This document shows positions 21,715 to 44,363 of a stretch of DNA of 46,880 nt, piece after piece. Both the position numbers and the translations under genes were made by a program. Source of the stretch: Escherichia phage BEK2; the sequence record MN158206.1. One strand, written 5' to 3'. The notes beneath the pieces were generated by a model. That model was given only the letters and a program-made list of their open reading frames with translations. It had not been told where the DNA came from and did no database searches. Numbering within the stretch: the first letter of the stretch is position 1; the number at the start of each line of letters is the position of its first letter.

Positions 21715-21757
21715 ATAGTATCGCATCCTTGCGATCAGTGTTTAGCAATTAGTGCTA
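21715..21757 (-). promoter_or_regulatory. composite early-type promoter (box + -10 TACTAT)
   Basis: box 21743-21757 (minus sense TAGCACTAATTGCTA), -10 at 21715-21720, leader 'ctccATCGAAACGAAAT'. Confidence 0.55.
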
Positions 21758-22431
21758 TTCGCCAAAAATACAGCTCTTGCAAATCCACGAGGTGTAAGAC
21801 TGCGAATTACCTTTGTTTTCTTGCTCTTCCCGCCTAGCTTCTTGTGCTGGTCTGAGTATCCATCATTAACGTCAACTGGTGAGGCTTGAGGCCATTTAAA
21901 CCCATTGCCAGACCAAATGCACGTCTTCTTAGGATATGCGTCTCTTGGCTTTATTAGGTCGCTAAAAAACGGGTGTAAATCATCTTCCGGCAAATAGCCT
22001 CCGTATTCGTAAGGGTGAAACGTGTTATCAGGTTTACTCCAGAGCGATGACAGCACGCTGACTGGGTTCTCAATCATGTATGGAACTCCGTATTTTTCAG
22101 CCAGTTTAAAAGCAACCTTGCAAGTCTCTGCCGCCTCAATTTGGAAGTTTTGGTTGGCTAGGCGCTTACGCTCAAAGTGTGCTGCCCCGCTCACGGCTAA
22201 ATCCGTACAGGGCGGGAATGCCATGATAAAATCAGGCTTCACATCAAAATCAAAACTGGAATCTATCCAGGCATTAACGTATGTAATGTTCTCATGCTCA
22301 ACCTTTGCATTTAAGTCACTGTAGCTCCCGTGGTCGGAATCATCAAAGTTGAAGCAGCAGCATGTGTGGCCAGCTTCAGCCCAATCATTTACAGCCAAAC
22401 CAGAACCATCAAATAAAGACCAGATAACCAT
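21742..22431 (-). CDS. DNA methyltransferase (FxGxG / PPC / ENP motifs)
   Basis: 'LFDGSGLA', '[12 protein letters not shown]', 'MIENPV'; class (C5 vs N6) uncertain; C-terminus 'NSTNC' encoded by TAGCAC box. Confidence 0.55.
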
Positions 22432-22460: not shown

Positions 22461-22503
22461 ATTATACTGCACAAAATTTATTGTTCTTTAGCAATTCGTG
22501 CTA
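22461..22503 (-). promoter_or_regulatory. composite early-type promoter (box + -10 TATAAT)
   Basis: box 22489-22503, perfect TATAAT (minus) at 22461-22466. Confidence 0.6.
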
Positions 22504-23172
22504 TTTCTTTTCCAGCAGCAGCTTGATGTCAATGCCGAGATTATTCTCAATCAATCCGGTCAGCGCATCATTCTTTTCTTTAAGAGCGAAGCATTGCGCT
22601 TCATACTTAAATCTTTCCTCCATCTCATTCGAGCGACTAGCCCAACACTGGCGAGCCTCACAAGCCAGCATATCGAGTTTTTCATCGGTATTCTTATCCA
22701 TGAGTAAGATCTCATTTATTCTTTGCTCTGCAACAATGCGCTGGCTCAGGTGTGCATTTTGCGCATTAGCCACACCAAGCATCATTCGAGCCTCTTTTAG
22801 CTCATCAATGCTTACCATCCGGCTGATTACTTCTGCTTGTTTTTTAACTAACGCCTCGAGCTCATGAAGTCGACGGATAACTCTGCGACGAAGAACTACG
22901 CTGTAGCCAGTGATTAGCGTTTCGGTGAGTTCCTTGTTGAGTAAAATCTCAGATGTATAGCCTCGATTATCCGTAAGTACTTGATAATCATCATGACCCA
23001 AATCTGGGGCATCGTTATAATGTAACAATTCATTGATCATTTCCTTTGTGTCGCGAACGACGTGATCATGACGCTTACCTGTCAATTCAGCAATTTCCTT
23101 CGTGCTCATCATGGTTTTTGGCTGTTCTTTGTACGCTTCAATTTTCATTTTAGTCTCTCTTATGCTTTTCAT
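22501..23172 (-). CDS. Rha-family (phage regulatory protein Rha) domain protein with coiled-coil C-terminus
   Basis: 'MSTKEIAELTGKRHDHVVRDTKEM' matches Rha N-terminal domain; start 23172/23148/23112 uncertain. Confidence 0.65.
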   Translation of the reverse strand: MKSIRETKMKIEAYKEQPKTMMSTKEIAELTGKRHDHVVRDTKEMINELLHYNDAPDLGHDDYQVLTDNRGYTSEILLNKELTETLITGYSVVLRRRVIRRLHELEALVKKQAEVISRMVSIDELKEARMMLGVANAQNAHLSQRIVAEQRINEILLMDKNTDEKLDMLACEARQCWASRSNEMEERFKYEAQCFALKEKNDALTGLIENNLGIDIKLLLEKK

Positions 23173-23252
23173 GGCTCAGATTTGAGCCATCGCTTGGTTT
23201 TGCTCTACCGATTTTCGGTAGACCAAGCAGCACCATTGCCACCATGCGACTA

Positions 23253-23295
23253 AATATACCTAAAGATAGTCAGTTGTCTTTAGCAATTAGTGCTA
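23253..23295 (-). promoter_or_regulatory. composite early-type promoter (box + -10 TATATT)
   Basis: box 23281-23295, -10 (minus) 23253-23258. Confidence 0.5.
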
Positions 23296-23780
23296 TTTAT
23301 CGCCAATTTCACCACAAATCACAGTTACACGTAACCGATGTAACTCGATGTATACAATCTCATTCGCGGAAAATGATATACGCGCCGTTACGCAAATTTA
23401 CGCAATAGTTACATTAAAATATCTATATATATCAACCTTTTACTATTATTATTATTATATATATTACTGTGTATATCATGTAACTACTGTTCTGGAGTGT
23501 TCCGGTTATAATTTTAATATCATGTGGATTTATACAGTATTGTGTGGCAGCCATACCAATGCACCCCCCGCAAGAAACGGTATACACGATATACACGATG
23601 GTTACATTGAGCTATATCTGGGCTGAGATGCCATTTTACGTAACAAGTTGCAATGCCTACACGGAATTACAAGTATTCACGCGTAAGTTTAAATCAACGA
23701 TTGGCAAAACCAATTGGACTGGCTACGGTACCGAATATATAGTTACCTCATCGAAAGCAAGCAACCAGAGAGATACAGAA
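23296..23780. repeat. divergent control region A: iterons + AT-rich microsatellite tract (candidate origin/operator region)
   Basis: GTTAC-AC-GTAAC inverted repeat 23324-23335, TTACGCAA x2 (23386-23404), tandem TATACACGA x2 (23581-23598), (TA)n/(TTA)n tract 23415-23490, shared block 23604-23646. Confidence 0.5.
23714..23743 (+). promoter_or_regulatory. rightward sigma70-like promoter of region A
   Basis: TTGGAC ... TATAGT (23738-23743) followed by leader 'cctcATCGAAAGCAAGCA'. Confidence 0.45.
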
Positions 23781-29140: not shown

Positions 29141-29155
29141 TAGCACGAATTGCTA
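29141..29155 (+). promoter_or_regulatory. orphan TAGCACGAATTGCTA box (no phased -10 for adjacent gene)
   Basis: perfect box between primase terminator and tail-fiber start codon, antisense to both. Confidence 0.4.
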
Positions 29156-30446: not shown

Positions 30447-30932
30447 TCATCCATGAGAAATGTCTTTAGCTTTTCGTGCTGCCTCGTTAGCGGCCTTAAT
30501 CTTGCGCCATGAGCGACACTCTGGCTTGGTGGCTAATTCTGCATCAGTGACCACGCGCAGCATGTGACGTTTTTTGCAGCGCAGGGTTAGAGGCTTGCCA
30601 TTGCCGTCGAATTGCAGATCTGGTCGGCAGAATGTGGCTCTAAAACCTTCCCCGGTTCGTTTGTAGTAGTTGTGCGATAACTGAGCACCACGTGCGGAAA
30701 TCATGCCGCGCTTAAACCATTCTTCTACAGCCTGTGGTGTTACCTTTAGCTGCTTTGCGATATTCGCTTTTGTGCCGAAGAAATCAAGAACTATATCTAG
30801 TCGCGCGCGTAGTCCGGCTCTTACTTCATCTTTTAAAACGTAGTAGCCTGAAGGTCGTTTGCGTTGTTTTTTGTCTTCAGTGCGGATAGTTCCGTTGTTC
30901 CCGTTGATTGTTCGCTTGTCGACTGTATTCAT
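30447..30932 (-). CDS. HTH DNA-binding protein (candidate transcriptional regulator)
   Basis: 'TKANIAKQLKVTPQAVEEWFKRGMIS' helix-turn-helix; first gene of leftward operon; GAGGT RBS. Confidence 0.55.
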   Translation of the reverse strand: MNTVDKRTINGNNGTIRTEDKKQRKRPSGYYVLKDEVRAGLRARLDIVLDFFGTKANIAKQLKVTPQAVEEWFKRGMISARGAQLSHNYYKRTGEGFRATFCRPDLQFDGNGKPLTLRCKKRHMLRVVTDAELATKPECRSWRKIKAANEAARKAKDISHG

Positions 30933-30945
30933 TTCATTACCTCAG

Positions 30946-30988
30946 TAGCATTTTTTGTTAAAAGTCATTCTGATTTGATGGTAGTATT
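30946..30988 (+). promoter_or_regulatory. degenerate composite promoter (TAGCATTTTTTGTTA + -10 TAGTAT/AGTATT)
   Basis: box 30946-30960, -10 ~30982-30988 at 36-37 bp; precedes helicase. Confidence 0.4.
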
Positions 30989-31033
30989 GTACTCAATTAA
31001 ACGCTACAAGACAATTTTTATAGGAATTTAGAT

Positions 31034-34650: not shown

Positions 34651-35781
34651 ATGGCAACTGCAAAGATTAGCAACGAACAACTACGCGAAGAACTGGCAAG
34701 TGGCATGACCAACAAGGCAATCGCAGAGAAGTACGGAATGAACATTCGCAATGTTGAATTGCGTCGTAGTAAATTGGCTAAGAGCGGGGAATTGCACGGG
34801 AACCCAGGCATCAAGAAACTAGTTCCTGACGGTTATATGGTTAAAGGCACATCAACAATGATTGACGCGGAAGGTAACGAGAAGATCAGATGGGTTAAAA
34901 CTTCAATAGATAATGAGCGACTTGAGGTTTTAATGGAGCAAGCGCGTGAGGCTTTTTGCTCTGATTTGCCAAAGGCAGATTCGGTCACCCACTCAGGTAA
35001 TGAGGTAAATTCTGAATTAATGACTCTTTACCCGATTTTTGATATCCATATCGGCATGATGGCTCATCGACATGAGTCTGGTGAAAATTATGACACCAAT
35101 ACCGCAGAGAAATTAATGGAATCATATTTCGATCATGCAATTTCTGTATCACCATCATCAGAGAAGGCTGTGATTTTGGTTGGCGGTGATTTCCTTCACT
35201 CTGACGGACTGGAGGCTGTAACTCCAGCAAGTGGGCACTGCCTTGATCAAGATAGTCGATATGCCAAGTTAGTTTATGTGGCAATTCGCTCAATTCGCGG
35301 TGCGGTAGAGAAGATGCTTAAGAAACACAAGGAAGTCGAGATTCAAATCATAGAGGGAAATCATGACCAAAGTGGTATGATTTGGCTTCGTGCGGCAATG
35401 GCTGCATTTTATGAAAGCGAGAGTCGCGTGTTTGTTGATACCAGCCCGGCAATCATGCACAAAACACGATTTGGCTCAACACTACTTGGTTACACGCACG
35501 GTCACACGATGAAGAAAGCAGAAGGCAGGCTTGCAGCTATGGCAACTGATTACAGGAAAGATTTTGGTGAGTGTGAATTTGTTTATTGCCACTCCGGGCA
35601 TTTTCACCACGCAACTGTTACAGAGTGCACTCTTGGGATTGATGAGGTTCACCCAGCTCTGGCTAGCAAGGATGCATATGCCGCTCGAGGAGGGTGGCGA
35701 TCATATCGCCAAGCGGCTGCAATTGTTTACCACAAGAATTTTGGCGAGGTTGGTAGACACATTTATCGCCCAGGTATGTAA
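34651..35781 (+). CDS. calcineurin-like metallophosphoesterase with N-terminal HTH
   Basis: 'DIHIGMM', 'GGDFLHSDG', 'EGNHD', 'GHTH' phosphoesterase motifs; N-terminal 'MTNKAIAEKYGMNIRNVELRR'. Confidence 0.65.
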   Translation: MATAKISNEQLREELASGMTNKAIAEKYGMNIRNVELRRSKLAKSGELHGNPGIKKLVPDGYMVKGTSTMIDAEGNEKIRWVKTSIDNERLEVLMEQAREAFCSDLPKADSVTHSGNEVNSELMTLYPIFDIHIGMMAHRHESGENYDTNTAEKLMESYFDHAISVSPSSEKAVILVGGDFLHSDGLEAVTPASGHCLDQDSRYAKLVYVAIRSIRGAVEKMLKKHKEVEIQIIEGNHDQSGMIWLRAAMAAFYESESRVFVDTSPAIMHKTRFGSTLLGYTHGHTMKKAEGRLAAMATDYRKDFGECEFVYCHSGHFHHATVTECTLGIDEVHPALASKDAYAARGGWRSYRQAAAIVYHKNFGEVGRHIYRPGM

Positions 35782-37463: not shown

Positions 37464-37543
37464 GATAATTTCCTTTCTCTTCTTAGTTTATATGGATTAA
37501 TAATAACAAAAGCCCACAAGGGGCTTTTAACAAAAGGTGCTAT

Positions 37544-39929: not shown

Positions 39930-39972
39930 AATATACAGGAAAAGCCCCGAAGGGCTTTAGCAATTAGTGCTA
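39930..39972 (-). promoter_or_regulatory. composite early-type promoter with embedded terminator hairpin
   Basis: box 39958-39972, hairpin aagccc-ttcg-gggctttt in spacer, -10 TATATT 39930-39935, leader 'tctcATCGAAACGAAAC'. Confidence 0.55.
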
Positions 39973-41714: not shown

Positions 41715-42300
41715 TTCGTTAGATTTATGGATTGTTGCAGATATTGCAATGATTCACATAATTATTGCACATACAGCAATATTGCTTCAGATGCAATGAT
41801 GTTTTTGATTGTTGCGAAAAGTGAAATGAAGTGGGGAGTGAGCGAATGAAAGATGGATGGACTACCATACAAGTTGATTTTGATTCTGGCTGGGCCATTT
41901 TCACGCCTACACGTAACGCCAGTAGCGCGATGTAAGCCAAGGCCAATCGTTACGTGAGTTACGCGCAGCTACGCCCGGACTTACACTATAAGTGCTTAAT
42001 ATATATATATATCTTCTTTCTATTATTATTATTAATATTAATATTATTGTATGTAAGTCGTGTAACGTGGGTCCTAGCGATATCTATATGTTTTTTCCTA
42101 TCAGAATACATTATTGCTATTTTATGTGGGATTTAGCCAGTATGGGGCCATTGCACTCATTTGCCTCGTTACACGCACGACACGAAACTACATTGAGCTA
42201 TAGCTGGGCTGGTGTGCCATTTCGCGTAACGACCCCCAAAAGTTACCAAAAATTACACTTGACTACATGTGTAAGTCGGGATATGATGGACTCAACTTAA
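41715..42300. repeat. divergent control region B: ATTGCA iteron array, GTTACG repeats, AT-rich tract, two copies of the shared block (candidate origin)
   Basis: (A/G)TTGC(A/T) about 7 copies 41730-41815; block copies about 41887-41920 and 42190-42232; (TA)n/(TTA)n tract 41995-42055. Confidence 0.5.
42259..42287 (+). promoter_or_regulatory. strong sigma70 promoter (rightward early)
   Basis: -35 TTGACT, 17-bp spacer, -10 TATGAT. Confidence 0.65.
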
Positions 42301-44150: not shown

Positions 44151-44193
44151 TAGCACTTTTTGCCTAACCCTCTTCGGAGGGTTTTGTTATAGT
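44151..44193 (+). promoter_or_regulatory. composite promoter variant with embedded terminator (TAGCACTTTTTGCCTA, hairpin, -10 TGtTATAGT)
   Basis: box 44151-44166, hairpin ccctc-ttcg-gaggg + T4 (44167-44186), -10 44188-44193, leader 'tcccATCGAAAGCAAAC'. Confidence 0.55.
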
Positions 44194-44324: not shown

Positions 44325-44363
44325 CACGAAATGATAAGCCGCTCCGGCGGGTTTTGTTATAGT
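44322..44363 (+). promoter_or_regulatory. degenerate composite promoter (TAGCACGAAATGATA + hairpin + -10 TGtTATAGT)
   Basis: -10 44358-44363 at 36 bp. Confidence 0.4.

What the first reader, a model, noticed from the sequence alone, without database searches (positions are those of the whole stretch)
22501..23295. Rha-family regulator in an apparently virulent genome, candidate factor for the box regulon
The Rha N-terminal domain ('STKEIAELTGKRHDHVVRD') is followed by a long coiled coil. No integrase or repressor module is present, so it probably has a lytic-cycle regulatory role. It is itself transcribed from a box promoter at 23281-23295, which could indicate autoregulation if it binds the box.
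Basis: inference. Interest (0 to 1): 0.5.

Follow-up and report, generated by a model that had tools for sequence, protein, structure and literature searches.

The report
Accessory Rha-domain gene, not box regulator
This is an ordinary, optional Rha-type DNA-binding gene carried by a minority of T1-like coliphages; it sits behind the phage family's shared promoter box but is very unlikely to be the protein that reads that box.

Summary
The window is Escherichia phage BEK3, a virulent T1-like phage (Drexlerviridae). The ORF is real: minus strand, 22501-23148, 215 aa. Its N-terminal domain passes Pfam's Phage_pRha cut-off and its C-terminal half is all-helical. A copy of the box lies upstream at 23281-23295, followed after 22 nt by a -10-like TATATT.

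The idea that this protein runs the "box regulon" does not.

- The box is the published direct repeat of T1-like phages, aaATAGCACnnnTTGnTAAAA. Its function is still unknown.
- It occurs 15-21 times per genome, with the same 22-nt spacing in most copies listed, in T1, Rtp, TLS and Klebsiella phage KP36.
- None of those four genomes encodes any Rha-like ORF.
- Full-length homologues occur in about 59 phage records. A Cro-like HTH regulator (T1 gp23 type) occurs in 824.
- In sister phages the N-terminal domain is swapped for another module while the box stays the same.

The gene is therefore a cargo gene of a hypervariable island upstream of the tail-tip accessory genes. It is driven by the box promoter system and does not control it. 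Its own target is unknown. The gp23-like regulator is a better, still unproven, candidate for the box factor.

The parts
22501..23148 (-). Rha-family CDS, 215 aa plus the stop codon TAG at 22503-22501. An alternative upstream ATG at 23172 would give 223 aa.
   Evidence: ORF list. 100% identical to BEK3 QGH76801.1 'putative DNA-binding protein'. Homologues start at the equivalent of 23148.
22834..23112 (-). N-terminal Phage_pRha domain (residues about 13-105 of the 215-aa protein). Predicted order of elements: beta-alpha-alpha-beta-beta-alpha-alpha, a putative DNA-binding fold.
22504..22833 (-). C-terminal all-helical module (residues about 106-215). It is exchanged independently of the N-domain between phages.
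   Evidence: AlphaFold2 predicts three long helices at pLDDT 58-67. About 80% identity to P0046, P0053 and P0056, which carry a different N-terminus. Heptad periodicity is not above shuffles.
23149..23246 (-). Inferred 5' leader of about 98 nt with two strong hairpins. The second hairpin covers the upstream ATG at 23172. The transcription start is an estimate from the -10 position.
   Evidence: RNA fold of 23247-23140 (108 nt, including the first codons): MFE -37.2 kcal/mol, z = -5.46. Compensatory stem changes in the homologue L126. No Rfam family matches.
23253..23258 (-). -10-like hexamer TATATT, 22 nt downstream of the box.
   Evidence: Read from the sequence. The same 22-nt spacing holds at most box copies of the window and in most copies listed for T1, Rtp, TLS and KP36.
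23281..23295 (-). Box copy TAGCACTAATTGCTA upstream of the Rha gene. If the hexamer is the -10, the box centre lies at about -42.
   Evidence: It is a copy of the direct repeat published for TLS, T1 and Rtp (PMC11447400).
22489..22503 (-). Next box copy, TAGCACGAATTGCTA. Its first three bases are the Rha stop codon. With TATAAT 22 nt downstream it would drive the next gene (22431-21742).
30447..30932 (-). Context, not part of the Rha gene: a conserved Cro-like HTH regulator (T1 gp23 / Rtp52 type), the rival candidate for the box factor.
   Evidence: P22_Cro HTH match E=5e-6, below the Pfam cut-off. 47-96% identical copies in Rtp, BEK6, T1, TLS and KP36. Present in 824 phage records. A sigma70-like TTGTCT-17-TACAAT lies upstream at 31014-30986. 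A box variant at 30946-30960 (+) lies inside its 5' leader.

Best explanation
The ORF is an intact accessory gene of a virulent T1-like phage. It has two modules: an N-terminal Rha-type domain, predicted to bind DNA, and an all-helical tail that I infer to be an oligomerisation or effector module.

The gene sits in a hypervariable island between a conserved intergenic control region and the lipoprotein / DUF6453 genes that lie next to the J-like tail protein gene. Like roughly twenty other genes of the phage, it is preceded by the family-wide box, a 22-nt spacer and a -10 hexamer. It is therefore a member of the box-driven set, not its regulator.

Most likely mechanism (inferred, not shown): the protein binds, as a dimer or higher oligomer, a DNA site of its own that is not the box. 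That site may be on host DNA, on co-resident prophage DNA or on phage DNA. The protein would then give an optional, strain-dependent benefit and not run the core lytic programme.

Its long structured leader suggests some extra control of its own expression after transcription starts.
For: **Identity and family.**
- The window is 99.9% identical to phage BEK3, Drexlerviridae.
- The protein passes Pfam Phage_pRha and matches PHROG 8235.
- The N-domain model is confident (pLDDT 87.6). Its nearest solved folds are DNA-binding domains, but the scores are weak.

**Not the box factor.**
- Box counts for TAGCACNNNTTGNTA with up to 1 mismatch: BEK3 20, BEK6 20, T1 21, Rtp 20, TLS 19, KP36 15. Shuffles of the five coliphage genomes give about 1.
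- Most copies listed in each genome have the same 22-nt spacing to a TAnnnT hexamer.
- T1, Rtp, TLS and KP36 have no Rha-like ORF by tblastn (E up to 10) or by profile HMMs of either N-terminal module.
- Full-length homologues occur in about 59 phage records. The gp23-like regulator occurs in 824.

**Accessory cargo.**
- Rtp has the same conserved intergenic region but no Rha gene. There the lipoprotein gene's box promoter abuts that region directly.
- The same locus holds different N/C module combinations in other phages, and up to four Rha-like genes in L128.

**Driven by a box promoter.** The box, the spacer and TATATT are conserved in BEK3, BEK6 and AugustePiccard.

**Structured leader.** z = -5.46.
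Against: - No binding data exist. A protein present only in some phages could still bind or modulate the box as an add-on.
- No candidate target site for the protein was found.
- Dimerisation is inferred. The helical tail is modelled at low confidence, and a crude heptad test was not significant.
- Transcription from the box promoter is inferred from conserved architecture only. No mapped transcription start sites for T1-like phages were found in the literature searches.
Confidence: 0.6

Rival explanations
1. One reading: the Rha protein binds the box as a dimer, activates (or represses) all box promoters, and autoregulates through the copy at 23281-23295.
For: - The box is a near-palindrome (TAGCA-N5-TGCTA), which suits a dimer.
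- If the hexamer is the -10, the box centre lies at about -42, a position typical of class II activators (the comparison is from my own knowledge).
- The gene has a putative DNA-binding domain and a box upstream.
Against: - The box set is intact in T1, Rtp, TLS and KP36, which have no Rha-like ORF.
- The gene is present in only about 7% (59 of 824) of the records that carry the family's conserved regulator.
- The N-terminal domain is swapped between phages with identical boxes.
- Its only recognisable promoter is itself a box promoter.
- BEK3 keeps the gp23-like regulator at 96% identity to Rtp's, so nothing has been replaced.
Confidence: 0.05
2. Antirepressor-type protein binder: the protein acts mainly through protein contacts, for example by inactivating a resident prophage repressor or a host regulator, as its 'anti-repressor' database labels suggest.
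For: - PHROG 8235 and related PHROGs are labelled anti-repressor.
- The N-domain is 50-60% identical to the N-domains of prophage proteins annotated as antirepressors, which also carry a KilAC/ANT domain.
- Variable accessory islands often hold genes for host or phage competition (own knowledge).
Against: - The ANT/KilAC domain (PF03374) is absent. Pfam at E up to 1 lists only Phage_pRha and weak helical noise.
- The labels are transferred by homology and have not been tested.
- No partner can be named.
Confidence: 0.15
3. On who reads the box: the conserved Cro-like HTH protein (T1 gp23 / Rtp52 type, window 30447-30932) is the box-binding factor. It would be made early from its own sigma70-like promoter. 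It would then activate box promoters that lack a good -35, and repress itself through the box copy in its own leader.
For: - It is present in every box-carrying genome tested, at 47-96% identity, and its HTH region is conserved.
- It occurs in 824 phage records.
- It has an HTH match (P22_Cro, E=5e-6).
- A sigma70-like TTGTCT-17-TACAAT lies upstream. The KP36 authors also annotated a promoter upstream of their homologue.
- In BEK3, Rtp, T1, TLS and KP36 a box copy facing the helicase gene lies 12-14 nt from the regulator's start codon, inside its leader.
Against: - The evidence is purely circumstantial. Any core gene would co-occur with the box.
- The Pfam match is below the curated cut-off.
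- The sigma70-like match is no better than chance for that region (1 found, 0.9 expected).
- The published alternatives remain open: UP-element-like contact with the host polymerase, a stoperator, or an enhancer site (PMC11447400).
Confidence: 0.35

Closest known systems
Rha of phages phi80 and P22 (Pfam PF09669 Phage_pRha; TIGR02681)
   Same: The N-terminal domain matches the Pfam family above its gathering score.
   Different: - It scores only 17 bits against the TIGR02681 cut-off of 45.95.
- It sits in a virulent T1-like phage and not in the late operon of a temperate phage.
- The defining phenotype, inhibition of phage growth on hosts lacking IHF (own knowledge: Henthorn and Friedman 1995), was not testable here.
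Roi of HK022 / BP-933W (the GenBank note on the BEK3 protein)
   Same: It is annotated as a Roi-like DNA-binding protein. Roi is a phage DNA-binding protein of the same broad group (own knowledge: Clerget and Boccard 1996).
   Different: I made no direct comparison with a Roi sequence. The tblastn hits by organism were T1-like coliphages plus N-domain-only hits in Salmonella, Pseudomonas and Klebsiella phages. The Roi label is a remote, untested transfer.
Prophage antirepressor-type proteins with Rha N-domain plus KilAC/ANT (PF03374), e.g. Pseudomonas and Acinetobacter prophages
   Same: The N-domain is 50-60% identical over about 40-46% of the query.
   Different: The C-terminal ANT domain is absent. 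An unrelated helical module replaces it.
Domain-shuffled KilA-N / Bro-N / Rha families of DNA viruses (Iyer, Koonin and Aravind 2002; own knowledge)
   Same: - There is two-way module exchange: one C-terminus with two different N-modules, and one N-module with two different C-termini.
- Several such genes can sit in one island.
   Different: The structural scores are weak. Homology between the two N-modules is only hinted at (hhalign E=0.006, probability 6%).
The 21-nt direct repeat of T1-like phages (TLS paper, PMC11447400)
   Same: Like the published repeat, it is oriented with transcription and lies upstream of start codons.
   Different: The paper leaves the function open (stoperator, enhancer site or UP-like element) and does not mention the fixed 22-nt spacing to a -10 hexamer seen here.

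Membership tests
Phage_pRha domain family (Pfam PF09669) | Match to the family HMM above the curated gathering score | tested here: met
   34.8 bits against a cut-off of 29.9, E=2.5e-8, profile positions 1-90 of 91.
phage_pRha subfamily (NCBIfam TIGR02681) | Score above the curated cut-off of 45.95 bits | tested here: not met
   17 bits, E=0.0046, and only residues 7-39 matched.
Rha in the functional sense (phi80 / P22) | A gene of a temperate phage late operon, regulated by IHF, whose product blocks phage growth on hosts lacking IHF | not testable with these tools
   The definition is from my own knowledge and the Pfam description. The context differs: the genome is a virulent Drexlerviridae phage and the gene lies in an accessory island.
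Ant / KilAC antirepressors | Presence of the ANT (KilAC) domain PF03374 | tested here: not met
   It is not among the Pfam matches at E up to 1. It is present in the distant N-domain relatives P0066, P0076, P0095 and others.
PHROG 8235 ('anti-repressor', label untested) | Full-length match to the PHROG profile | tested here: met
   E=4.5e-83, residues 11-223 matched to profile positions 2-219 of 219.
   T1, Rtp, TLS and KP36 have 15-21 boxes each and no Rha-like ORF. Record counts are 59 against 824.
   The N-module is replaced in P0046, P0053, P0056 and P0063. The one natural locus examined for these (L128) has box promoters of the same core.
   This needs EMSA, footprinting or DAP-seq.
Winged-helix / KilA-N-like DNA-binding folds | Significant structural match of the N-domain to a solved DNA-binding domain | tested here: inconclusive
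Coiled-coil proteins | Heptad periodicity or a confident coiled-coil model | tested here: inconclusive
   Long helices are predicted at pLDDT 58-67. The crude a/d-position test did not exceed shuffles: 312 of 500 shuffles reached the observed value.

The most novel reading that the evidence does not exclude
The Rha-type genes of this island may form a diversifying family of modular proteins, each an exchangeable DNA-targeting head on an exchangeable helical tail. T1-like phages would deploy them against host or competing-phage DNA, for example by derepressing or silencing resident prophages or defence loci. Each head would recognise a different target. The structured leader would time their expression.
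Probability: 0.15. Interest if true: 0.5.

Novelty: already known. Interest (0 to 1): 0.15.

Why it matters
As proposed, the finding would have named the missing regulator of a conserved promoter element of T1-like phages. The function of that element is still open in the literature (PMC11447400).

The comparative evidence removes this candidate. It points instead to two options: the conserved gp23-like HTH protein, or direct recognition by the host RNA polymerase. That narrows the experiment needed to settle the box question.

The Rha gene itself is one more optional, horizontally shuffled phage gene of unknown target. It is useful mainly as an example of module swapping in the variable island.

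Tried and rejected
- **Literal box sequence in the literature.** A full-text search found only unrelated primer matches.
- **Transcriptomics or mapped start sites for Drexlerviridae.** Nothing usable turned up. One search was badly framed and returned only unrelated papers.
- **Functional work on Rha or Roi.** The searches gave only annotation-level mentions. The T1 genome paper is not held.
- **PDB sequence search** with the family profile: no hit.
- **Foldseek on the full model:** nothing with E below 0.39.
- **Other libraries.** PADLOC gave no match. Rfam gave no family for the leader or surroundings.
- **Leader palindromes as Rha operators** (TACCGAAAATCGGTA and GGCTCAAATCTGAGCC). I rejected this. 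BEK3, BEK6 and AugustePiccard share the N-domain but differ in these palindromes. One stem shows compensatory changes typical of an RNA hairpin. The one shared leader motif also occurs in L128, which has a different N-module.
- **The adjacent intergenic region (23296-23560) as a Rha-specific target.** I rejected this because Rtp, which lacks the gene, has the region almost unchanged.
- **The box as a sigma54 promoter** (TGGCAC-N5-TTGC). I rejected this by reading the sequence: the spacing is 2 nt too short, GG is replaced by AG, and a sigma70-type -10 lies at a fixed distance.
- **TTGCTA as a -35 hexamer.** The 22-nt spacer is too long for sigma70.
- **T1 gp16 homologue (L001 34655-35782, about 34651-35778 in window coordinates) as a sigma region-4-like protein.** The KP36 annotation hints at this, but Pfam gave no match here.

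Full report
**What the window is**

A megablast of 20000-26000 matches Escherichia phage BEK3 (MN158207.1, 46,884 bp, Drexlerviridae, Braunvirinae) at 99.9%. The record's 72 CDS show the usual T1-like layout and no integrase or CI-type repressor. The target protein is 100% identical to QGH76801.1, "putative DNA-binding protein (Roi of BP-933W)".

**Checking the observation**

The ORF lies on the minus strand at 22501-23172.
- The ATG at 23148 is the likely start. It has a Shine-Dalgarno-like sequence, is the GenBank start, and matches 215-aa homologues.
- The upstream ATG at 23172 lies inside a hairpin.

Family matches:
- Pfam Phage_pRha matches above its gathering score (34.8 bits against 29.9).
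- PHROG 8235 matches full-length.
- The stricter TIGR02681 model does not reach its cut-off.

Structure:
- AlphaFold2 gives a confident N-domain (pLDDT 87.6).
- The C-terminal half is modelled as three long helices at low confidence.
- My crude heptad test did not support a coiled coil.
- There is no solved relative detectable by sequence.

The box at 23281-23295 is real and lies on the gene's strand. It is followed after exactly 22 nt by TATATT.

**What the box is**

In the window, TAGCACNNNTTGNTA with up to 2 mismatches plus a TAnnnT hexamer 19-25 nt downstream gives 22 candidate sites. Most are intergenic, point towards the next gene and have exactly the 22-nt spacer. A few are in-gene or reverse-strand chance matches.
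- A further copy, upstream of the HNH endonuclease gene at 505-519, has a GATAAT-type hexamer (read).
- Many sites are followed by a CATCGAAACGAAAC-type leader.
- The box often overlaps the stop codon of the upstream gene. This is the case at 22489-22503, where TAG is the Rha stop codon.
- There is no good -35. If the hexamer is the -10, the box spans about -49 to -35.

The element is already published. The TLS re-annotation reports a 21-nt direct repeat, aaATAGCACnnnTTGnTAAAA, in 21 copies and oriented with transcription. It says similar repeats occur in T1, Rtp and Rogue1. It offers stoperator, enhancer-site or UP-like roles without deciding (PMC11447400).

If the Rha protein read the box, the two should travel together. 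They do not.

| Phage | Box copies (up to 1 mismatch) | Rha-like ORF | gp23-like regulator |
|---|---|---|---|
| BEK3 | 20 | yes | yes |
| BEK6 | 20 | yes | 96% identical |
| T1 | 21 | none | 53% |
| Rtp | 20 | none | 96% |
| TLS | 19 | none | 47% |
| KP36 (Klebsiella) | 15 | none | 65% |

- Shuffles of the five coliphage genomes give about 1 box each. KP36 was not shuffled.
- The spacing to the -10 hexamer is the same in most copies listed in every genome.
- "None" means no tblastn hit with the full protein or either half at E up to 10. It also means no hit for profile HMMs of the Rha N-domain or the alternative N-module against all six-frame ORFs of at least 40 aa.
- In the phage collection the full-length protein occurs in about 59 records. 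The Cro-like HTH regulator of T1 gp23 / Rtp52 type occurs in 824.

**The gene is shuffled cargo**

Rtp has the neighbouring intergenic region almost unchanged. There, the lipoprotein gene's box promoter abuts that region directly, and BEK3 has the Rha cassette inserted at that point. Elsewhere the same locus holds other combinations:
- the same C-terminal half (about 80% identity) with a different N-module (P0046, P0053, P0056, P0063);
- the same N-domain (82%) with a different C-terminus (AugustePiccard P0065, P0069);
- four Rha-like genes side by side in L128.

The box in front of these genes keeps the same core. More distant N-domain relatives carry a KilAC/ANT domain, which is absent here. 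This is the module shuffling long described for KilA-N, Bro-N and Rha proteins (own knowledge: Iyer et al. 2002).

**Better candidates for the box factor**

The gp23-like HTH gene (window 30447-30932) is conserved in all six genomes.
- It has a sub-threshold P22_Cro HTH match.
- A sigma70-like TTGTCT-17-TACAAT lies upstream, though one such match is what chance gives in that region.
- In every genome with site listings, a box copy driving the divergent helicase gene lies 12-14 nt from its start codon, inside its own leader.

That layout would allow early synthesis, activation of box promoters and self-repression. It is circumstantial. Recognition by the host polymerase alone (UP-like) is not excluded.

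**What the Rha protein most likely does**

*Shown:*
- The gene is intact and conserved at 82-95% identity among about 59 phage records.
- It has a Rha-type N-domain.
- Its modules are exchanged between phages.
- It lies behind a box promoter, with a leader of about 98 nt that folds far better than shuffles (z = -5.46).

*Inferred:*
- It binds DNA through the N-domain and oligomerises through the helical tail.
- Its target is not the box.
- It is dispensable for the core lytic programme.

I found no candidate site. The leader palindromes behave like RNA hairpins, and the adjacent intergenic region is not specific to Rha-carrying phages.

**Verdict**

The mechanistic interpretation is contradicted by the comparative data. 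The gene is an already annotated member of a known family with an unknown target, so interest is low. The open and more interesting question is what reads the box.

Noticed in passing
window 23296-23700 and 41998-42257: There are two paralogous divergent intergenic regions. Segment 23418-23475 matches 41998-42055 (79%), and 23603-23671 matches 42189-42257 (72%). Each has a (TTA)n/(TA)n AT-rich tract. The first also has a GTTACACGTAAC palindrome and two TTACGCAA repeats. It is nearly identical in Rtp. These could be early promoter regions or a replication origin.
   Followed up: partly
window 23149-23246 (minus strand): The inferred leader of the Rha gene is unusually long compared with the short CATCGAAACGAAAC-type leaders of most box promoters. 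It folds into two strong hairpins (MFE -37.2 kcal/mol, z = -5.46). One hairpin hides the upstream ATG at 23172. A homologue shows compensatory stem changes (GGCTCA/TGAGCC against GACCCA/TGGGTC). No Rfam family matches.
   Followed up: partly
window 39936-39957, 44166-44187, 44337-44357, 37506-37527 and others: The 22-nt spacer between box and -10 often holds a complete terminator-like hairpin with a T-run, for example AAGCCCTTCGGGGCTTTT. Elsewhere an inverted repeat flanks the -10 (43320: GGGGAT...ATCCCC; 44853: GGGGTAA...TTACCCC). Termination of the upstream unit and initiation of the next unit appear to be packed into one element of about 45 nt.
   Followed up: no
window 29141-29155 (+): An orphan box points against the flanking minus-strand genes (tail fibre and primase) and into the primase gene's terminator hairpin. 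Its TATAAA hexamer is 24 nt away, not 22. The same arrangement is conserved in T1 (34903), Rtp (33763) and BEK6 (28938). It could be an antisense or small-RNA promoter.
   Followed up: no
window 30946-30960 (+) and 30986-31014 (-): A box variant, TAGCATTTTTTGTTA, drives the helicase gene. It lies inside the leader of the divergent gp23-like HTH regulator gene, 12-14 nt from that gene's start codon. The same arrangement occurs in Rtp, T1, TLS and KP36.
   Followed up: partly
window 21742-22431 (minus strand): The gene immediately downstream of Rha has only a weak match to the N-terminus of C-5 cytosine DNA methyltransferases (E=0.0099, with an FDGSG motif). Like Rha, it is absent from this locus in Rtp and BEK6. 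It is probably another optional cargo gene with its own box promoter.
   Followed up: partly
L126 (ENA k141_21704): This metagenomic contig is a mirror-image assembly artefact. The gene order is palindromic around the hairpin upstream of the Rha-like gene, so its upstream sequence beyond that hairpin cannot be trusted.
   Followed up: no
IMG/VR loci L023, L030, L040, L051: Exact box matches also occur on viral contigs of 144-188 kb, far larger than T1-like genomes. These may be chimeric assemblies or unrelated large phages that share the motif.
   Followed up: no
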